Positions 1 through 6,068 of a stretch of DNA of 6,068 nucleotides are shown here, one piece after another (positions within the stretch are counted from its first letter, which is position 1; every line of letters begins with the position of its first letter). The notes beneath the pieces were generated by a model, which was given only the letters and a program-made list of their open reading frames with translations, made no database searches and was not told the origin of the DNA. The DNA is from Escherichia phage ID21, in sequence record NC_007818.1. One strand, written 5' to 3'. Both the position numbers and the translations under genes were made by a program.

Positions 1-66
1 TTGTTGACATTCCCTAAATCCTTATGAGACTCTTGCTTCAGCGAAATGACGCAGGAGTCTTTGCTT

Positions 67-435
67 ATGAAACCCGCACATCGCTTAACCCATCCGGTTC
101 TCGGTTCTTGGTTGTTTAAGTGTCCTGTTTATATCCGTTACGAACACCTTCATCATGGTCGTCTTATTAAGGTTCGTGCTGTTCGCGATTTATCCCCTCG
201 CCAACAGCTTATTGCTAACCCTAAAAATTGCTTTGACGTTGTTATTGCTGAGATTGATGTTACTTATGGCTCCCTCACTTGGTTTGATTATGAGCATGAG
301 GAATATGACGAGTTTGAGCCTGATGTTATAAAAGGCCTCGTTAACTATATTGAAATCCCTCATGTTATCCGTTCTGAGGAAGATCCTTCTGTTGATATTG
401 ATGATATGGATTGGCTTTATGAAATTGCGGAGTAA
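67..435 (+). CDS. Hypothetical protein (122 aa; 129 aa if started at in-frame ATG 46) with basic N-terminal half and strongly acidic C-terminal half, encoded in the expanded H-A intergenic region
   Basis: ORF track 46..435. AGGAG at 53-57 lies 9 nt upstream of ATG 67. Third codon positions are predominantly T (CGT, GTT, GAT, CCT, ATT), as in the capsid and scaffold genes. No similarity to any phiX174 protein I can recall. Confidence 0.45.
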   Translation: MKPAHRLTHPVLGSWLFKCPVYIRYEHLHHGRLIKVRAVRDLSPRQQLIANPKNCFDVVIAEIDVTYGSLTWFDYEHEEYDEFEPDVIKGLVNYIEIPHVIRSEEDPSVDIDDMDWLYEIAE

Positions 436-438
436 ATT

Positions 439-528
439 ATGGAAACTGTTATCGGAAAACTTATTGCTCTGGCTGTTGTTGCTCTTATGCTGTATGGAAT
501 TGCCCGTTTGATTCGGAGGTTTCCGTGA
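439..528 (+). CDS. Hypothetical 29-aa hydrophobic peptide (METVIGKLIALAVVALMLYGIARLIRRFP), likely single-pass membrane peptide
   Basis: ATG 439 lies 3 nt after the stop of the upstream ORF (TAA 433-435), with GGAG at 429-432 six nt upstream. A 17-residue hydrophobic core is followed by RLIRR. Below the size cut-off of the supplied ORF track; translated manually. Confidence 0.3.
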   Translation: METVIGKLIALAVVALMLYGIARLIRRFP

Positions 529-701
529 AATATTTTAGTTTGGTAGATGAACATTATGCTTACTGCCCTGATACAAGGATTTTGCACATCACTCGTAGTC
601 GTGTTTCTGACCCTCGTTATGAGCGTCGCTTTCTTACTGATGAGGAGCATTTTGCACTTTTGGATTGGTTAAAAAATCGCCCAACTTATATTAATTCTTG
701 A
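525..701 (+). CDS. Hypothetical 58-aa protein, GTG start overlapping upstream stop (GTGA)
   Basis: GGAGG at 515-519 lies 5 nt upstream of GTG 525, whose last two bases overlap the TGA stop (526-528) of the preceding peptide. T-rich third codon positions and four CGT Arg codons match the phage coding style. No in-frame ATG, so it depends on the GTG start. Stop TGA 699-701 sits inside the -35 of the gene A promoter. Confidence 0.3.
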   Translation: MKYFSLVDEHYAYCPDTRILHITRSRVSDPRYERRFLTDEEHFALLDWLKNRPTYINS

Positions 702-727
702 CAGGCCTTTAAAATACCCTCTATATT
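698..727 (+). promoter_or_regulatory. Sigma70-type promoter upstream of gene A (P_A candidate): TTGACA(698-703)-18 nt-TATATT(722-727)
   Basis: Perfect -35 hexamer and 5/6 match to TATAAT with an 18-nt spacer, about 35 nt upstream of the A start codon. phiX174 also has a promoter immediately upstream of A. Confidence 0.5.
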
Positions 728-757
728 GCCCTCATAGTTTCACTACGAGGGCTTTTT
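728..757 (+). terminator. Intrinsic-terminator-like hairpin (10-bp stem with one A.C mismatch, 5-nt loop) followed by TTTTT, between the P_A -10 and the A start codon
   Basis: GCCCTCATAG (728-737), loop TTTCA (738-742), CTACGAGGGC (743-752), then T5 (753-757). Position is analogous to a terminator after gene H (T_H) that I recall for phiX174. Confidence 0.4.
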
Positions 758-760
758 CGC

Positions 761-2245
761 ATGGCTACTGAAATCTTCTCTGATGTTGTTAAGTCTGTTT
801 GGTCGCACGCTACGGCTAAGCATTCTCATCTTCGTATGGCTGTGCAGGTTGATAACCGTAGTCGTCTTCTTTCTGATTTGGTTTACCAGCTGGAAAAGCG
901 CCTCTCTGAAGAGACTCATCTGGATGATGAGACTTATGCTCTTTATGAATCTCAAACTGGTCTCTTGGAGGACCATATGGCGCTGGTTCGGAAGTGTGCT
1001 GCCCAACTTGATAATAGTAACACTATAGACCACCGTACTCCTTTGGACTCCGAATGTGTTTTCCTCTTTGAGATGATTTGCCCCGGTGTTCGCTACGGTA
1101 AAACATTGAATTCTCTTTGGACCAAGTATGTTGCCCAGTGGCCTGAGAAGTTGATTCGTCAGGAGCTTGATATGGTTAAGCCTTTATCCTTTAAGGATGA
1201 GGTTGCCAAGTACATGGAGAAAATGCAGGAAAAGACACGCAAAAATCGCATGACTCAGAAAGTAATTAATGAGATGCGTATTGCTCACCAGAAAGGCTGG
1301 TTCTTCGTATTTGATACGTTGACCCTTGCCGATGACCGTTTGCAGGCTTTTAATGAAAACCCAAATGCTCTTCGTGATTATTTCAGGACTGTTGGTCGAG
1401 CTGTTCTGCGCGCTGAAGGCCGCTCGGTTAAGGATTCCTACAACGACTGCTATCGCTATCTTTGTGTGCCGGAGTTTGGAGGTCAGCATGGCCGTCTTCA
1501 TTGGCACGTTGTGCATATGGTGCGGACTCTTCCTTTGGGAAGTCACGACCCTAATTTCGGTCGCAAGGTACGTAATTATCGCCAGATTAACTCGTTCCGT
1601 GGCATGTGGCCTTATGGCTTCACGCAACCGATAGCTGTACGCTATCAACATGATGCTTATTCTCGCAAAGGTTGGCTGTGGCATGTTGACAAATCAGGAA
1701 AAGCAATGCAGAGTAAGCCTTATCAGGCGGTCGCATGGTATGTGACCAAGTATGTGGCTAAGCAGTCTGACCAGCGTCAGAAAGCTATTACCGAGAGACA
1801 AAAGAAATGCAAGAATCCACTTATGGCAATATGTCTGAAAAAGGAATTCAGAGTTCGCAGCAGCCGGAAGCTCGGAATGGAGTTGCCGTCGATGGCGCAT
1901 CTCAGCAACAAGGTACTTCTGGAACTGAGTCGAATCAGCTTCGATTCCAGCCCTCTGTATCAGATAGTGAAAGAGAACGCCAAAAAGCAATTGACCTTGA
2001 ACATCGGCGCGCTGCCTTTACACGTCATTTTGGATGTGCGCCCGGAAGTGAGAAGTATGTTGAAAAATATCCGTCGTTTGATGAAAAAGACACCCGAGTT
2101 CAATTGGCAGAGTTCTATCGCTTCAATGACGGTCACCTTAAAAAATGGGGATATTTCTAATGAAGCACGTCAATACATTATTGATGCAGGAATTACGCCT
2201 TCTGATTTGCGAGCTAAAGCGACTCAAACTTTCGGCGGTAAGTGA
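761..2245 (+). CDS. A: Replication initiation protein A (rolling-circle HUH endonuclease), 494 aa
   Basis: ORF track 761..2245. Contains AWYVTKYVAK with two tyrosines (Y327, Y331) matching the phiX174 gpA active-site YVAKYVNK motif as I recall it, plus an HUH-like LHWHVVH. Central and C-terminal regions align with recalled phiX174 gpA (GWFFVFDTLTLADDRL, NPNALRDYFR, DPNFGRKVRN). Contains the origin at 1004-1033. Confidence 0.95.
   Translation: MATEIFSDVVKSVWSHATAKHSHLRMAVQVDNRSRLLSDLVYQLEKRLSEETHLDDETYALYESQTGLLEDHMALVRKCAAQLDNSNTIDHRTPLDSECVFLFEMICPGVRYGKTLNSLWTKYVAQWPEKLIRQELDMVKPLSFKDEVAKYMEKMQEKTRKNRMTQKVINEMRIAHQKGWFFVFDTLTLADDRLQAFNENPNALRDYFRTVGRAVLRAEGRSVKDSYNDCYRYLCVPEFGGQHGRLHWHVVHMVRTLPLGSHDPNFGRKVRNYRQINSFRGMWPYGFTQPIAVRYQHDAYSRKGWLWHVDKSGKAMQSKPYQAVAWYVTKYVAKQSDQRQKAITERQKKCKNPLMAICLKKEFRVRSSRKLGMELPSMAHLSNKVLLELSRISFDSSPLYQIVKENAKKQLTLNIGALPLHVILDVRPEVRSMLKNIRRLMKKTPEFNWQSSIASMTVTLKNGDISNEARQYIIDAGITPSDLRAKATQTFGGK
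1004..1033 (+). other. Viral (+) strand origin of rolling-circle replication; predicted gpA nick between G1010 and A1011
   Basis: CAACTTGATAATAGTAACACTATAGACCAC matches the phiX174 30-nt origin CAACTTG/ATATTAATAACACTATAGACCAC (recalled) at 27 of 30 positions; the three differences are in the AT-rich middle. Confidence 0.85.
1214..2245 (+). CDS. A*: A* protein: in-frame internal restart of gene A (start uncertain: ATG 1214, 1223 or 1250)
   Basis: phiX174 makes A* from an internal in-frame ATG about 25 residues before the conserved GWF motif. Here in-frame ATGs lie at 1214, 1223 and 1250 before GWFFVF, and AAGGATGAGG (1193-1202) is an SD-like element upstream of 1214. Confidence 0.45.
   Translation: MEKMQEKTRKNRMTQKVINEMRIAHQKGWFFVFDTLTLADDRLQAFNENPNALRDYFRTVGRAVLRAEGRSVKDSYNDCYRYLCVPEFGGQHGRLHWHVVHMVRTLPLGSHDPNFGRKVRNYRQINSFRGMWPYGFTQPIAVRYQHDAYSRKGWLWHVDKSGKAMQSKPYQAVAWYVTKYVAKQSDQRQKAITERQKKCKNPLMAICLKKEFRVRSSRKLGMELPSMAHLSNKVLLELSRISFDSSPLYQIVKENAKKQLTLNIGALPLHVILDVRPEVRSMLKNIRRLMKKTPEFNWQSSIASMTVTLKNGDISNEARQYIIDAGITPSDLRAKATQTFGGK
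1807..2160 (+). CDS. B: Internal scaffolding protein B (117 aa), nested in gene A in another frame
   Basis: ORF track 1807..2160. C-terminus ...RVQLAEFYRFNDGHLKKWGYF parallels recalled phiX174 gpB ...RIQPAEFYRFHDAEVNTFGYF. Stop TAA 2158-2160 overlaps the K start as TAATG. Confidence 0.85.
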   Translation: MQESTYGNMSEKGIQSSQQPEARNGVAVDGASQQQGTSGTESNQLRFQPSVSDSERERQKAIDLEHRRAAFTRHFGCAPGSEKYVEKYPSFDEKDTRVQLAEFYRFNDGHLKKWGYF

Positions 2246-2348
2246 CCCGGATTTTTCTCAGGAGAAGATTCATGCTGAGCTCAACTCGTTATTATGCAAG
2301 TTATCGCGCTACTTTGACGAAGCAGCTGATGTTTCTTACAAAGGCTGA
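2160..2348 (+). CDS. K: Protein K (62 aa), overlapping the end of A and the start of C
   Basis: ATG 2160-2162 overlaps the B stop. Product MKHVNTLLMQELRLLICELKRLKL... resembles recalled phiX174 gpK (...IKQELLLLVYELNRSGL...). The ORF-track start at 2145 is an upstream in-frame ATG and less likely. Confidence 0.65.
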   Translation: MKHVNTLLMQELRLLICELKRLKLSAVSDPDFSQEKIHAELNSLLCKLSRYFDEAADVSYKG

Positions 2349-2478
2349 CTTTACGAATGATGATGAAAAGTGGCTTAACGCTTTTGGTAATCTTCTTCGT
2401 CAGTGGTTTGAAATTGAACAATGGAAAGGCAATCATAAAAAATTGCTTGACGACCTGAAAAAACGTAATTACATTTGA
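2242..2478 (+). CDS. C: DNA maturation/packaging protein C (78 aa from GTG 2242; 68 aa if started at ATG 2272)
   Basis: ORF track 2242..2478. Shares ...DEEKWLN...WF with recalled phiX174 gpC. GTG 2242 overlaps the A stop as GTGA, mirroring the phiX174 ATGA A-stop/C-start overlap. ATG 2272 has a canonical AGGAG (2260-2264) 7 nt upstream, so the true start is ambiguous. Confidence 0.75.
   Translation: MTRIFLRRRFMLSSTRYYASYRATLTKQLMFLTKADFTNDDEKWLNAFGNLLRQWFEIEQWKGNHKKLLDDLKKRNYI
2447..2475 (+). promoter_or_regulatory. Sigma70-type promoter upstream of gene D (P_D candidate): TTGACG(2447-2452)-17 nt-TACATT(2470-2475)
   Basis: 5/6 match at -35 and 4/6 at -10 with ideal 17-nt spacing, lying in the 3' end of gene C about 45 nt upstream of the D start, where phiX174 has its D promoter. 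Confidence 0.5.
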
Positions 2479-2520
2479 GTTGTTTCAAAGGTTTTTACCC
2501 ATAAATGTTAGGAGTATGTT

Positions 2521-2979
2521 ATGTCTAATCTCGTTGCTACCGATGTTAATTTTGCTACTTCTGTTGCTGCTCTGAAGATGCTTCAGGCTTCAGCCGTTTT
2601 GGATATTACCGAAGAGGATTTTGATTTTCTGACTGGTGATAAAATTTGGATTGCTACCGACCGCAACCGCGCGCGTCGTTGTGTAGAGGCTTGCGTTTAT
2701 GGGACACTGGACTTTGTCGGGTATCCTCGCTTTCCTGCTCCTGTTGAGTTTATTGCTGCCGTCATTGCTTATTATGTTCATCCCGTTAACATTCAGACGG
2801 CCTGCCTCATCATGGAAGGCGCGGAGTTTACAGAAAATATTGTTAATGGCGTCGAGCGTCCGGTTAAAGCCGCTGAGCTCTTCGCGTATACCTTGCGTGT
2901 TAAGGCCGGATTCAAAGAGACGGTTTTAAGCGCTGAGGATAATGCTCGTCAGAAACTGCGTGCAAGTGGAGTTATGTAA
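2521..2979 (+). CDS. D: External scaffolding protein D (152 aa)
   Basis: ORF track 2521..2979. Near-identical over long stretches to recalled phiX174 gpD (RARRCVEACVYGTLDFVGYPRFPAPVEFIAAVIAYYVHPVNIQTACLIMEGAEFTEN). SD TAGGAG 2509-2514. Confidence 0.97.
   Translation: MSNLVATDVNFATSVAALKMLQASAVLDITEEDFDFLTGDKIWIATDRNRARRCVEACVYGTLDFVGYPRFPAPVEFIAAVIAYYVHPVNIQTACLIMEGAEFTENIVNGVERPVKAAELFAYTLRVKAGFKETVLSAEDNARQKLRASGVM
2699..2929 (+). CDS. E: Lysis protein E (76 aa), nested in gene D in the +1 frame
   Basis: ORF track 2699..2929. N-terminus MGHWTLSGILAFLLLLSLLLPSLLIMFIP matches the phiX174 E transmembrane domain (MVRWTLWDTLAFLLLLSLLLPSLLIMFIP, recalled), including the conserved proline. GAGGC lies upstream of the ATG. 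Confidence 0.85.
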   Translation: MGHWTLSGILAFLLLLSLLLPSLLIMFIPLTFRRPASSWKARSLQKILLMASSVRLKPLSSSRIPCVLRPDSKRRF

Positions 2980-2980
2980 T

Positions 2981-3055
2981 ATGAAAAAAGCTCGTCGTTC
3001 TCCTTCTCGTAAGAAAGGTGCTCGCCTCTGGTATGTAGGCGGTTCTCAATTTTAA
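2981..3055 (+). CDS. J: Small basic DNA-binding/packaging protein J (24 aa: MKKARRSPSRKKGARLWYVGGSQF)
   Basis: Translated manually (too short for the ORF track). ATG 2981 is 1 nt after the D stop. C-terminus GARLWYVGG matches phiX174 gpJ; the short 24-aa form suggests an alpha3-like phage. Confidence 0.85.
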   Translation: MKKARRSPSRKKGARLWYVGGSQF

Positions 3056-3060
3056 TTAAT

Positions 3061-3074
3061 GGGGCTTCGGCCCC
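3061..3074 (+). terminator. J-F intergenic hairpin GGGGC-UUCG-GCCCC (5-bp G/C stem, UUCG tetraloop); likely terminator/mRNA-stabilising element
   Basis: Perfect inverted repeat directly visible. The same GGGGCTTCGGCCCC occurs in the phiX174 J-F spacer as I recall. Followed by AAGGA SD and the F start. Confidence 0.55.
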
Positions 3075-3089
3075 TATAAGGATTCTTAA

Positions 3090-4373
3090 ATGTCAAACGT
3101 GCAAACTTCCGCTGAACGTATTCCTCACGACCTCTCTCATCTGGTTTTTGATGCAGGCAAAATTGGTCGTTTAAAGGTTGTTTCTTGGACTCCTGTTGTT
3201 GCAGGTGATTCTTTTGAGCTTGATATGATTGGCGCTATTCGCCTTTCTCCGCTTCGTCGTGGCCTTGCTGTTGACTCTCGCGTTGACCTGTTCACGTTTT
3301 ATGTTCCTCATCGTCATGTATATGGTGAGCAGTGGATTGAGTTTATGAAGCAAGGTGTTGATGCTGCTCCTTTGGCCCCTGTTCAGTGCTCTCGCGGTTG
3401 GGATAGTGCTCAGTATCTTGCTACCATTCCGTCTAGTAACCTGAAGGTTCCTAAGTTTCTTCATCAAGGTTACCTGAATATTTATAACAACTATTTTAAA
3501 GCTCCGTGGATGGATGATTTGACTTATGCCAATCCGTCCAATATGGAAGGTGAAGATGTTCGTTTTGGTGTTCGCGCATGTAACCTGAAGACTATCTGGA
3601 CTGCCCCTCTGCCGCCGGATACCGAGACCTCTCATTCTATGGAGACCGAGACTAACTCCATTGATATTATGGGTTTACAGGCTGCTTATGCTCAATTGCA
3701 TACTGAGCAGGAGCGTGATTACTTTATGACTCGTTATCGTGATATCGTTAACGAATTTGGAGGTAGCACGTCTTATGACGCGGATAATCGTCCTCTTCTG
3801 GTTATGCACTCTGAGTTTTGGGCTTCAGGCTATGACGTCGACGGCACCGACCAAAGCTCTCTCGGTCAGTTCTCCGGTCGTGTCCAGCAGACGTTTAAGC
3901 ATTCAGTACCGCGATTCTTCTGTCCTGAGCATGGCACTATGTTTACACTCGCATTGGTCCGCTTCCCGCCGACCCATGAGATGGAGATGCATTACTTAGT
4001 TGGTAAGGAAGATTTGACTTATACTGATTTGGCTTGTGACCCAGCTCTGATGGCTAACTTGCCTCCGCGTGAGGTTAATATGTCTCAGTTCTTCCATTCT
4101 GGAAGTACTAGTGCTAAGTTTAAGATCGCTGAAGGTCAGTGGTATCGTATGCAGCCTGACCGTGTTGCTCTGCCTTATAACTATCTTGATGGTTTCCCGT
4201 TCTATAGCGCGATTCCGTCTGATGATATTAAGCAGCGTGTTCTGGTTAATACTGATAACTACGATGAGGTTTTCCAGTCTATGCAACTTGCTCACTGGAA
4301 TATGCAGACTAAGTTTAACTGCACCATTTATCGTAATATGCCGACTACTCGTGATTCTATTATGACTTCTTGA
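3090..4373 (+). CDS. F: Major capsid protein F (427 aa)
   Basis: ORF track 3090..4373. Long near-identical stretches to recalled phiX174 gpF (LSPLRRGLA, YVPHRHVYGEQWI, YLNIYNNYFKAPWM, SYDADNRPLLVM, GYDVDGTDQ, PRFF.PEHGTMFTLALVRFPP, KFKIAEGQWYR, TTRDSIMTS). Confidence 0.97.
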   Translation: MSNVQTSAERIPHDLSHLVFDAGKIGRLKVVSWTPVVAGDSFELDMIGAIRLSPLRRGLAVDSRVDLFTFYVPHRHVYGEQWIEFMKQGVDAAPLAPVQCSRGWDSAQYLATIPSSNLKVPKFLHQGYLNIYNNYFKAPWMDDLTYANPSNMEGEDVRFGVRACNLKTIWTAPLPPDTETSHSMETETNSIDIMGLQAAYAQLHTEQERDYFMTRYRDIVNEFGGSTSYDADNRPLLVMHSEFWASGYDVDGTDQSSLGQFSGRVQQTFKHSVPRFFCPEHGTMFTLALVRFPPTHEMEMHYLVGKEDLTYTDLACDPALMANLPPREVNMSQFFHSGSTSAKFKIAEGQWYRMQPDRVALPYNYLDGFPFYSAIPSDDIKQRVLVNTDNYDEVFQSMQLAHWNMQTKFNCTIYRNMPTTRDSIMTS

Positions 4374-4379
4374 TTATGT

Positions 4380-4393
4380 GGGGCTTCGGCCCC
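4380..4393 (+). terminator. F-G intergenic hairpin GGGGC-UUCG-GCCCC, second copy of the J-F element
   Basis: Same 14-nt hairpin as 3061-3074, again followed by TTTAAGGATT and a start codon. Confidence 0.55.
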
Positions 4394-4409
4394 CTTTAAG
4401 GATTTGATT

Positions 4410-4955
4410 ATGTTTCAAGTTTATGTAGCTAAACATGTTGCTCCGTTCACTTCCATGAATCGTGCATTTTCTATCTCTCCTGCTGCTGACCCGCAGGTTG
4501 TTAACTCTGGCGAGATTGTTGCTGGTCGTTCTACCTTCCGCATTGCTTCTTCTATTGATTCAGCTTCCAATGGTAATGGTTTTGCATTCGTTCAGATGAT
4601 GGACCCTAACTCTCCTGATTCTCAGCAGGTCTTCTCTGTTGCTGCGTCACTGTCTTTTAGCGTTGACTCGAATTATGTCCCTTGCGTTGTTCGCTTTGAG
4701 AGTAGTGCTGCTCAGCCTGGTCGATTCGCTATTTCTAAGGCTGATTTTATTCCGGTTGAGGCCTCCGCCCTCTCTGCGCGCGCGCTTAGTGTTCGTGATT
4801 GTGTTACTGTTGATGTTAAGCCTCGCACTGAAGGTAATAACGTCTTTGTTGGTCTATTCCTGTCTTCTGCTGCCGCTAATGCTGGTAATGTTACTGGTGT
4901 TATTTCGATGGCTCAGGTTGACCATGAAGTTACAGCTTTGCAGCCTCTTAAATAA
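4410..4955 (+). CDS. G: Major spike protein G (181 aa)
   Basis: ORF track 4404..4955 (TTG); the ATG at 4410 with AAGGA 7 nt upstream is preferred. MFQ start, CVVRFESS, RDCVTVDVKPRTEGNNVFVG and C-terminal LQPLK match recalled phiX174 gpG. Confidence 0.9.
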   Translation: MFQVYVAKHVAPFTSMNRAFSISPAADPQVVNSGEIVAGRSTFRIASSIDSASNGNGFAFVQMMDPNSPDSQQVFSVAASLSFSVDSNYVPCVVRFESSAAQPGRFAISKADFIPVEASALSARALSVRDCVTVDVKPRTEGNNVFVGLFLSSAAANAGNVTGVISMAQVDHEVTALQPLK

Positions 4956-5090
4956 AAGGCCGCCGCACTCCCGGTTATATGCCTGCCCAGTGTAGGGCGG
5001 ACCGAGCCGTACGGAGATACCCGATAAACTAGGAACGTGGAAGGCGTTAGCCGCCTTCCCTCCTGCTAAGCCCAAAGGAGACTTTCAGCT
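4956..5090 (+). other. 135-nt GC-rich structured G-H intergenic region; candidate complementary (-) strand origin of the DnaG-primase-dependent type
   Basis: No credible ORF. Several stem-loops are visible (6-bp stem 4983-5000; CCGTACGG palindrome 5007-5014; perfect 8-bp stem 5039-5059). A CTG at 5063-5065 sits just 3' of the strongest hairpin. GC-rich unlike the T-rich coding regions. Confidence 0.4.
5039..5059 (+). other. Perfect hairpin GGAAGGCG-TTAGC-CGCCTTCC (8-bp stem, 5-nt loop)
   Basis: Inverted repeat read directly from the sequence. Not followed by a T-run, so not a canonical intrinsic terminator. Confidence 0.5.
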
Positions 5091-6068
5091 ATGTTAGGTG
5101 CCGTTGTAGGTGGTATTGCTTCAGCCTTAGCCGGTGGAGCCGCCTCTAAGTTATTTGGTGGCAAGTCTGCCCCTCAAGCCGCTACAGAGTCCGCTGGTCT
5201 ATCTAACGGTCAAGGTGTTATTGGTATGGACCAAGATGCCGGTATTCAGTCTGCTATTCAGGGTTCAAATGTCCCAAATGGTCAGATTCCTGCTCCTACT
5301 ACTACAGGTGGCGTTATGTCTGATGCTGGCAATATGATTAAGAATGCTGGTAAAGATTTGCTTGATGGTGTTATGACTGCTGGTAGTGACCGCGTTAAGC
5401 AGGCTTTGATTGATAAGTTAGGTGGCAATAATGCGAAGAAACAAGGACAAGCAACCCGTGATTACTTGGCTGCGGCCTTCCCTGAGCTCAACGCATGGGA
5501 GCGTGCTGGAGCTGGTGCTTCCGGCGCCGGCTTGGAATCTTCCAGTCAGGACCAACAGAAAGAATTGATGCGGATGCAGTTGGACAACCAGAAAGATATT
5601 GCGAAGATGCAGATGCAGAATAATTTGCAGATTGCAGGTATTCAGTCCGCTACTTCTCGTCAAAATACGAAGGATTCTGTTTATGCTCAGAATGAGATGC
5701 TTCAGTACAATCAGCGTGAGTCGCAAGCGCGTGTTGAGTCCATCCTTGCCAACACTGACCTTACGGCTAAACAGGCCACCCATGAAATTATGAGAATGGC
5801 CCTTACTCGTGCTCAGGAGACTGGTCAACACTTAACTAACTCCCAGGTTATGGCATTGGAGAAAAAGGTTTATGCAGAAATCGGAAAAATTCATCAGGAT
5901 ACTCAAAATGCTCGTTATGGTAGCTCTCAAGTTACTGCTGCGGCGAAAGATGTTACAAATATGATTTCTGATGCTGCTGGCGGTGTTGCCGATTGGGCTT
6001 CTCAGCAGTGGAATTCTTTCTTTAAAGATGGCAAGTCTAATGGTATTCCTCTCAATACCAGAAAATAA
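5091..6068 (+). CDS. H: Minor spike / DNA pilot protein H (325 aa)
   Basis: ORF track 5091..6068. Gly/Ala-rich N-terminus MLGAVVGGIASALAGGAASKLFGG, TRDYLAAAFPELNAWERAGA, IAGIQSATSRQNTKD.VYAQNEML and RYGSS match recalled phiX174 gpH. SD AAAGGAG 5074-5080. The stop codon is the last triplet of the window. Confidence 0.93.
   Translation: MLGAVVGGIASALAGGAASKLFGGKSAPQAATESAGLSNGQGVIGMDQDAGIQSAIQGSNVPNGQIPAPTTTGGVMSDAGNMIKNAGKDLLDGVMTAGSDRVKQALIDKLGGNNAKKQGQATRDYLAAAFPELNAWERAGAGASGAGLESSSQDQQKELMRMQLDNQKDIAKMQMQNNLQIAGIQSATSRQNTKDSVYAQNEMLQYNQRESQARVESILANTDLTAKQATHEIMRMALTRAQETGQHLTNSQVMALEKKVYAEIGKIHQDTQNARYGSSQVTAAAKDVTNMISDAAGGVADWASQQWNSFFKDGKSNGIPLNTRK

What the first reader, a model, noticed from the sequence alone, without database searches (positions are those of the whole stretch)
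4956..5090. GC-rich structured G-H spacer with hairpin next to CTG: candidate primase-dependent complementary-strand origin
Unlike the short G-H junction I recall for phiX174, this spacer is 135 nt, GC-rich and non-coding. It contains a perfect 8-bp hairpin (5039-5059) immediately 5' of a CTG (5063-5065). In G4-type phages DnaG primase starts the primer opposite the T of a template CTG and synthesises into an adjacent stem-loop. A primer started at T5064 would read 5'-AGGAGGGAAGGCGG... and span this hairpin. I recall that alpha3/St-1-type phages carry their minus-strand origin between G and H, but cannot verify that here.
Basis: partly seen in the sequence, partly recalled or inferred. Interest (0 to 1): 0.6.

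Follow-up and report, generated by a model that had tools for sequence, protein, structure and literature searches.

The report
Known primase-dependent complementary-strand origin

Summary
The G-H spacer is 135 nt (4956-5090) and is the most GC-rich 135-nt stretch of the genome. It carries a perfect 8-bp hairpin (5039-5046/5052-5059) three bases 5' of CTG 5063-5065. The hairpin alone is not beyond chance (0.59 expected per shuffled genome), so the case rests on homology.

The window is a complete alpha3-group microvirus, at best 93% identical to phage ID32. Its spacer aligns end to end with the G-H spacers of alpha3, St-1 and phiK. Positions 5005-5076 are 72/72 identical to alpha3 and St-1. 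It also aligns with the F-G spacer of G4, the classic primase origin (blastn E=9e-23 to the G4-group phage ID52).

The aligned G4 CTG reproduces the published G4 primer properties. In 24 distinct origins the CTG is invariant, and stem-loops I and III are kept by three compensatory base-pair changes. The spacer core is 94% conserved against 75-86% for the flanking genes. G4's stem-loop II is absent from the whole alpha3 group.

Interest is low. Side observation: a diverged copy of the module lies in small satellite-like E. coli plasmids.

The parts
4956..5074 (+). Complementary-strand (minus-strand) origin, oric, of the St-1/phiK/alpha3 type. It is read as a structure on the packaged + strand.
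   Evidence: Full-length alignment to the alpha3/St-1/phiK G-H spacers and the G4/ID52 F-G spacers. blastn E=9e-23 to ID52. Mean pairwise identity 0.944 in 12 alpha3-group genomes, against 0.753 for gene G, 0.863 for gene H and 0.70-0.74 at third codon positions.
4958..5003 (+). Stem-loop III. Basal helix 4958-4964 with 4996-5003 (A5001 bulged), plus a weaker apical part.
   Evidence: 99.4% of cells paired in 24 origins. Two pairs show compensatory double changes: C-G to T-A in 5 sequences and G-C to A-T in 2. The same helix appears in the G4 DNA fold.
5004..5038 (+). Conserved, essentially unstructured linker containing TACGGAGATAC (5010-5020). It occupies the position of G4 stem-loop II, but the 3' arm of that stem is missing.
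   Evidence: 34/34 identical to alpha3 and St-1. The G4 stem II pairs are unpaired in 18 of 18 alpha3-group sequences at 4 of 6 positions. Fold of 5001-5040 is -2 kcal/mol with z=+0.93, against -6.4 kcal/mol for G4.
5039..5059 (+). Stem-loop I (Hairpin I). The 8-bp stem is GGAAGGCG/CGCCTTCC and the loop is TTAGC. It contains the mini-hairpin motif GCGTTAGC at 5044-5051.
   Evidence: 100% paired in 24 origins, with an A-T to C-G compensatory change between the alpha3 and G4 groups. It matches the published St-1/alpha3 Hairpin I. Local fold z=-3.25.
5063..5065 (+). 5'-CTG-3' primase start signal. The primer is predicted to start opposite T5064.
   Evidence: Invariant in all 24 origins and in the plasmid copies. 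It aligns with the G4 CTG, which reproduces the published primer features.
5037..5064 (-). Predicted RNA primer (up to about 28 nt by analogy with G4): 5'-AGGAGGGAAGGCGGCUAACGCCUUCCAC. It is copied from the + strand through hairpin I.
   Evidence: Reverse complement of the template from T5064. The length is inferred from G4.
5066..5074 (+). Conserved 3' flank (CTAAGCCCA) following the start site.
   Evidence: CTGC-AAGCC is invariant or nearly so in the alpha3 group, the G4 group and the plasmid copies.
5075..5080 (+). Shine-Dalgarno sequence (AAGGAG) of gene H. It is not part of the origin.
   Evidence: 10 nt upstream of ATG 5091. This 3' part of the spacer (5075-5090) is poorly conserved, with mean identity 0.706.

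Best explanation
The spacer is the origin of complementary-strand synthesis of an alpha3-type microvirus. After infection the circular + strand is coated by host SSB, except where stem-loops III (4958-5003) and I (5039-5059) resist coating. DnaG primase, without DnaB or the PriA primosome, binds this SSB-phased structure and starts an RNA primer opposite T5064 of the CTG. It copies leftwards through hairpin I, giving 5'-AGGAGGGAAGGCGG..., and DNA polymerase III then extends the primer to make the double-stranded replicative form. Shown here: homology, conservation, covariation, strand and position. Inferred from G4, St-1 and alpha3 biochemistry: the proteins involved, the start nucleotide and the primer length.
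For: The window is a complete alpha3-group genome. The + strand is the packaged strand: all genes lie on it, and the 30-nt viral-strand origin sits at 1004-1033 (28/30 match to phiX174). The spacer aligns end to end with the alpha3/St-1/phiK G-H spacers and the G4-group F-G spacers, with blastn E=9e-23 to ID52. Positions 5005-5076 are 72/72 identical to alpha3 and St-1. The published St-1/alpha3 Hairpin I sequence is unique in those genomes and lies in the G-H spacer. The G4 CTG aligned to 5063-5065 reproduces the published primer properties. The CTG is invariant in 24 origins. There are three compensatory pair changes in stems III and I, with 99.6% of cells paired against 29-57% when partners are slid. 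The non-coding core is conserved at 0.944, against 0.70-0.74 at third codon positions. The same module sits in a different intergenic slot in G4 (F-G) and in non-coding plasmid DNA, so its function does not depend on the neighbouring gene.
Against: No priming experiment exists for this genome. The hairpin plus CTG alone is within chance expectation, and the whole-spacer fold is not significant (z=-1.24). G4's stem-loop II is absent, so the three-hairpin SSB-phasing model described for G4 cannot apply unchanged. I could not read Sims et al. 1979. The map position in alpha3-type phages is therefore inferred from where the published hairpin sequence lies, not from the paper's own text.
Confidence: 0.93

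Rival explanations
1. The structured spacer acts at the RNA level, as a transcription terminator or mRNA-stabilising hairpin after gene G, or as a translational throttle for the low-copy protein H. On this view it is not a DNA origin.
For: It lies between two genes on the transcribed strand, and the hairpins would also form in mRNA. The Shine-Dalgarno sequence of H follows 15 nt after hairpin I.
Against: No terminator-like site was found in the spacer, and hairpin I is followed by CCCTCCTGC rather than a T run. The same module lies upstream of gene G in the G4 group, and in plasmid non-coding DNA on the strand opposite to all annotated genes, so it is not tied to H expression. The part nearest the H start codon is the least conserved (0.706). 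A secondary RNA-level role is not excluded.
Confidence: 0.04
2. It is a phiX174-type primosome assembly site recognised by PriA (protein n'), which requires DnaB, DnaC, DnaT, PriB and PriC before priming.
For: phiX174 keeps its complementary-strand signal in a long (110-nt) intergenic spacer, which is a comparable genomic setting.
Against: There is no similarity to any part of phiX174 beyond 8-9-nt chance words. None of the phiX174-group records was hit by the spacer, whereas homology to the primase-only G4 origin is strong.
Confidence: 0.02
3. It is a chance GC-rich hairpin in a functionless spacer.
For: The expected number of 8-bp perfect hairpins per shuffled genome is 0.59, and the whole-spacer fold has z=-1.24.
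Against: Identity is 94% across the alpha3 group, higher than in the flanking coding DNA. There are compensatory substitutions, the CTG is invariant, and the region is homologous to an experimentally defined origin.
Confidence: 0.01

Closest known systems
Negative-strand (complementary-strand) initiation sites of phages St-1, phiK and alpha3 (Sims, Capon and Dressler 1979, J Biol Chem 254:12615, as cited in PMC13037366)
   Same: Same genomic slot (G-H spacer) and same length. Hairpin I, the CTG, the 3' flank and the linker are identical (72/72 over 5005-5076). Only 2-3 substitutions occur, all in stem-loop III.
   Different: The host genome is a different alphatrevirus, at best 93% identical to any record in the phage collection. 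The origin itself has no meaningful differences.
Phage G4 origin of complementary-strand synthesis (G4oric / G4ori)
   Same: Homologous over the whole length. Stem-loops I and III, the TACGGAGATAC block, the CTG start signal and its spacing from hairpin I, and the GCGNNAGC loop motif are shared. The expected mechanism is the same: SSB plus DnaG only.
   Different: It lies between G and H rather than between F and G. Stem-loop II of G4 (CGGAGA/TCTCCG) is not formed. Hairpin I has A-T where G4 has C-G, and GCGTTAGC where G4 has GCGAAAGC. The first C of the predicted primer is at position 12 rather than 9.
Plasmid 'G4-type' single-strand initiation (ssi) signals (my recollection of work by Nomura, Masai and Arai around 1991; not verified in the library)
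   Same: Primase-dependent priming signals resembling G4oric on non-phage replicons. Diverged copies of this very module occur in small E. coli plasmids (82% and 71% identity).
   Different: Those copies rebuild the hairpin I region around GCGAAGC and lie in plasmids with satellite-like gene content. Their activity is untested.
phiX174 PriA (n') primosome assembly site in the F-G spacer
   Same: Same biological task: starting the complementary strand on SSB-coated viral DNA.
   Different: There is no sequence similarity, and the protein requirements differ (established knowledge).

Membership tests
St-1/phiK/alpha3-type primase-dependent complementary-strand origin | Non-coding spacer between genes G and H on the packaged (+) strand | tested here: met
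   Spacer 4956-5090 lies between G and H. The viral-strand origin 30-mer is on the same strand at 1004-1033.
St-1/phiK/alpha3-type primase-dependent complementary-strand origin | Hairpin I with an 8-bp stem and a GCGTTAGC loop region | tested here: met
   GGAAGGCGTTAGCCGCCTTCC at 5039-5059, identical to and unique in alpha3, St-1 and phiK. It matches the description in PMC13037366.
St-1/phiK/alpha3-type primase-dependent complementary-strand origin | Sequence identity with the experimentally sequenced origins | tested here: met
   120/122 identical to St-1, 119/122 to alpha3 and 118/122 to phiK over alignment columns 1-122.
G4oric-like primase origin (works-like class) | 5'-CTG-3' start signal a few bases 3' of stem-loop I | tested here: met
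   CTG 5063-5065 lies 3 nt after the stem, is invariant in 24 origins, and aligns to the G4 start site validated against published primer features.
G4oric-like primase origin (works-like class) | Stem-loops I and III maintained by selection | tested here: met
   Three compensatory pairs and 99.6% of cells paired. No double changes appear when partners are slid by 1-3 columns.
G4oric sensu stricto (three stem-loops) | Stem-loop II (CGGAGA ... TCTCCG) | tested here: not met
   The 3' arm is absent. 18 of 18 alpha3-group sequences are unpaired at 4 of 6 positions, and the middle segment folds at -2 kcal/mol with z=+0.93. The element is therefore filed under the St-1/alpha3 type, not as G4oric proper.
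G4oric-like primase origin (works-like class) | Priming by DnaG on SSB-coated ssDNA without DnaB or PriA; rifampicin-resistant | not testable with these tools
   This requires in vitro priming or in vivo assays of conversion from single strand to replicative form.
phiX174-type PriA primosome assembly site | Homology to the phiX174 F-G spacer hairpin recognised by PriA | tested here: not met
   Only 8-9-nt chance words are shared with phiX174. No phiX174-group hits were found.
Intrinsic transcription terminator | GC-rich hairpin followed by a T run | tested here: not met
   No terminator-like site was found in 4956-5090.

The most novel reading that the evidence does not exclude
The origin may be a portable cassette whose real recognition unit is smaller than the textbook three-hairpin G4 structure. 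It sits in the F-G spacer in G4-type phages, in the G-H spacer in alpha3-type phages, and at 71-82% identity in non-coding DNA of small satellite-like E. coli plasmids. Across all of these, stem III, the ..A(C/G)(G/A)GAGATAC.. linker, a GCG(N)NAGC mini-hairpin and CCCT(C/A)CTGC(T/A)AAGCC persist. Stem-loop II (absent in the alpha3 group) and the extended 8-bp hairpin I (rebuilt in the plasmids) do not. That would favour sequence-specific recognition plus a mini-hairpin over SSB phasing by three hairpins. It would also document exchange of an origin between microviruses and plasmid or satellite replicons.
Probability: 0.3. Interest if true: 0.4.

Novelty: already known. Interest (0 to 1): 0.12.

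Why it matters
It matters mainly for annotation. None of the GenBank records of alpha3-group phages inspected here marks this origin, so a 120-nt essential cis-element goes unlabelled in these genomes. Recognising it explains why this non-coding spacer is as conserved as the replication gene A. Anyone engineering or synthesising these genomes should not alter it. It adds no new biology: the element and its mechanism were worked out in 1978-1998 for G4, St-1, phiK and alpha3.

Tried and rejected
1. Statistical significance of the hairpin-plus-CTG motif alone: not significant, so it was dropped as evidence.
2. The RNAalifold consensus proposed a competing helix (alignment columns 29-34 with 41-46) instead of the basal stem III. 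I rejected it because the two variable positions change on both sides only in the stem III model, while the alternative shows one-sided changes only.
3. A G4-like stem-loop II in the window: absent.
4. Pattern scans of IMG/VR and JGI metagenomes for the block CTGCCCANTGTNGGGCNGACCG. Apart from alpha3/G4-group microviruses and one metagenomic relative (L034), all hits (L025, L029-L033, L035-L039) were chance matches inside high-GC contigs with no flanking similarity.
5. Rfam: no family matched the window or the plasmid loci, as expected for a DNA element.
6. Literature: I could not obtain Sims et al. 1979, Fiddes et al. 1978 or Rokyta et al. 2006. No open paper stating 'between G and H' was found, and no open paper on plasmid G4-type ssi signals was found.
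7. Similarity to phiX174: none.
8. Complete E. coli genomes: the module occurs in only 2 of 5426 genomes, both on the 8-kb plasmid.

Full report
**What the window is**

The 6068-nt window is a complete microvirus genome with the gene order A(B,K)-C-D(E)-J-F-G-H, all on the + strand. It belongs to the alpha3 group (genus Alphatrevirus). The best matches in the phage collection are ID32 (93.0%), NC3 (92.5%) and WA13 (91.9%). Alpha3, phiK and St-1 match at 84-85%. The 30-nt viral-strand origin known from phiX174 gene A is present on the + strand at 1004-1033 (28/30 match). The + strand is therefore the packaged strand, the one on which a complementary-strand origin must be read.

**Check of the observation**

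- Gene G ends at 4955 and gene H begins at 5091, so the spacer is 135 nt.
- Its GC content is 59.3% against 45.3% for the genome, and it is the most GC-rich 135-nt window of the genome.
- The inverted repeat GGAAGGCG/CGCCTTCC at 5039-5046/5052-5059 is perfect, with a 5-nt loop. It is the only perfect hairpin of 8 bp or more in the genome.
- CTG lies at 5063-5065, three bases after the stem.
- The comparison with other phages also holds. The G-H spacer is 8 nt in phiX174 and 10 nt in G4. The F-G spacer is 110 nt in phiX174, 136 nt in G4 and only 36 nt here.
- The motif alone is not beyond chance. Shuffled genomes contain 0.59 such hairpins on average and 0.10 with a nearby CTG. The whole spacer folds with z = -1.24.

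**Homology**

The spacer aligns without large gaps to the G-H spacers of alpha3, St-1 and phiK and to the F-G spacers of G4 and ID52. A blastn search with the spacer found all alpha3-group records at 91-99% identity. It also found G4-group phages ID52, NC6 and vB_1081 at 80% over 141 nt (E = 9e-23), at a position between their F and G genes. Over alignment columns 51-122 (window 5005-5076: the linker, hairpin I, the CTG and the 3' flank) the window is 72/72 identical to alpha3 and St-1. Only 2-3 substitutions separate them, all in stem-loop III.

**Link to the experimental literature**

- PMC6783573 states that on SSB-coated G4 DNA, primase alone starts the primer at the T of a 5'-CTG-3' located 3' of three stem-loops. 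It adds that the 28-nt primer has its first C at position 9, followed by 18 A-free nucleotides.
- Reading the G4 sequence from the CTG that aligns with window 5063-5065 gives AGUAGGGACGGCGGCUUUCGCCGUCCA, which has exactly these properties. The aligned CTG is therefore the mapped G4 start site.
- PMC13037366 reports that Hairpin I of the St-1 and alpha3 origins has an 8-bp stem and GCGTTAGC where G4 has GCGAAAGC. [quoted passage not shown]
- The sequence GGAAGGCGTTAGCCGCCTTCC occurs exactly once in each of alpha3, St-1, phiK and the window, always in the G-H spacer.
- I could not read the 1979 paper itself. The map position is therefore inferred from where the published hairpin lies.

**Selection on the element**

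In a whole-genome alignment of 12 alpha3-group genomes, the non-coding core 4956-5074 has a mean pairwise identity of 0.944. This equals gene A. It is far above gene G (0.753), gene H (0.863) and third codon positions (0.70-0.74). The last 16 nt, which carry the Shine-Dalgarno sequence of H, are only 0.706.

I then assembled 24 distinct origins, 18 from the alpha3 group and 6 from the G4 group, including three metagenomic viral contigs and one metagenome contig.

- The CTG is invariant.
- For a G4-like model of stem-loops III and I, 99.6% of cells are standard pairs, against 29-57% when partners are slid by 1-3 columns.
- Three pairs show compensatory double changes. Two are in stem III (C-G to T-A in 5 sequences, G-C to A-T in 2). 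One is in hairpin I (A-T in the alpha3 group, C-G in the G4 group).
- A competing helix proposed by RNAalifold shows only one-sided changes at the same columns.
- The loop of hairpin I varies (TT, CA, TA, AA, T, A). In 23 of 24 sequences it stays within the GCGNNAGC/GCGNAGC mini-hairpin motif described in PMC13037366.

**A real difference from G4**

G4 DNA folds into three stem-loops (z = -4.98). The 3' arm of G4 stem-loop II is missing in all 18 alpha3-group sequences. The window's middle segment 5001-5040 has no significant structure (-2 kcal/mol, z = +0.93), while the G4 equivalent folds at -6.4 kcal/mol. This linker is nevertheless highly conserved in sequence: TACGGAGATAC at 5010-5020 is nearly invariant across both groups. 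The window is therefore a member of the St-1/phiK/alpha3 origin type. It works like G4oric but is not G4oric in the strict three-hairpin sense.

**Rivals**

- Terminator: no terminator-like site lies in the spacer.
- Gene-specific regulation: the module sits upstream of a different gene in G4 and on the non-coding strand of plasmids, which argues against a role specific to gene H.
- phiX174-type site: there is no similarity to phiX174, including its PriA-site spacer.
- RNA family: Rfam has no matching family.

**Side observation**

The origin module matches unannotated non-coding DNA of small E. coli plasmids. CP057337.1 and CP057350.1 (9.65 kb) match at 81.8% over 117 nt (E = 1e-19). NZ_CP062859.1 and NZ_CP062904.1 (8.0 kb) match at 71%, and CP057168.1 (9.0 kb) also carries a copy. 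These copies keep the stem III arms, the central block and CCCTCCTGCTAAGCC. They rebuild the hairpin I region around GCGAAGC. The 9.65-kb plasmid encodes an AlpA-like regulator, a small-terminase-like protein and a serine recombinase, so it looks like a phage-satellite-like element. Only 2 of 5426 complete E. coli genomes carry such a copy. I recall that 'G4-type ssi' signals on plasmids are known, but I could not verify this in the library.

**Verdict**

The feature is the known DnaG-dependent complementary-strand origin of alpha3-type phages, essentially identical to the St-1 and alpha3 origins sequenced in 1979. It is unannotated in the database records I inspected, but it is not new. Interest is low.

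Noticed in passing
L048:5001-5119 (CP057337.1 1083-1201, minus strand); L049:866-985 (NZ_CP062859.1 7025-7144, minus strand); also CP057168.1 2146-2269: A diverged copy (71-86% identity) of the whole microvirus complementary-strand origin lies in unannotated non-coding DNA of small (8.0-9.65 kb) E. coli plasmids, on the strand opposite to all annotated genes. The plasmids encode AlpA-like, small-terminase-like and serine recombinase proteins, so they resemble phage satellites. Hairpin I is rebuilt around GCGAAGC, while stem III, the linker and the CTG flank are kept.
   Followed up: partly
window 5004-5038: All alpha3-group origins lack G4's stem-loop II but keep its 5' arm sequence (TACGGAGATAC) almost invariant. 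The plasmid copies keep a diverged form of the same block (ACAGAGATAC). This suggests sequence-specific rather than structural constraint on the segment.
   Followed up: partly
window 5044-5051 and alignment A2 columns 90-97: The hairpin I loop varies among 24 origins (GCGTTAGC, GCGCAAGC, GCGTAAGC, GCGAAAGC, GCGTAGC, GCGAAGC) but only at the N positions of the GCGNNAGC/GCGNAGC mini-hairpin motif. The single exception is metagenome contig L034 (GCGTTAGT).
   Followed up: partly
window 46-435 and 525-701: The roughly 760-nt region between H and A is unannotated in all related GenBank records inspected. It contains ORFs of 129 aa and 58 aa whose conservation across 12 genomes is lowest at the third codon position (0.85/0.90/0.69 and 0.95/0.98/0.81), the pattern of real protein-coding genes.
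   Followed up: partly
window 3056-3089 and 4374-4409: The J-F and F-G spacers both contain the same hairpin GGGGCTTCGGCCCC followed by ..TAAGGATT.. just before the next start codon. This is a repeated hairpin-plus-ribosome-binding-site unit, possibly the weak terminators or mRNA stabilisers known from phiX174-type transcription. The terminator scan did not flag them, since there is no T run.
   Followed up: no
window 1-6068: The genome is at most 93% identical to any record in the phage collection, and its best relative changes along its length. Overall it is closest to ID32, but the G-H spacer is closest to MG945254, NC29 and NC35 (98-99%) and only 93% identical to ID32. This suggests a recombinant mosaic and a probable new species-level alphatrevirus.
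   Followed up: no
window 698-727: The strongest sigma-70-like promoter match in the genome (TTGACA, 18-nt spacer, TATATT; 11/12) lies just upstream of gene A (ATG 761). This is consistent with the promoter of gene A.
   Followed up: no
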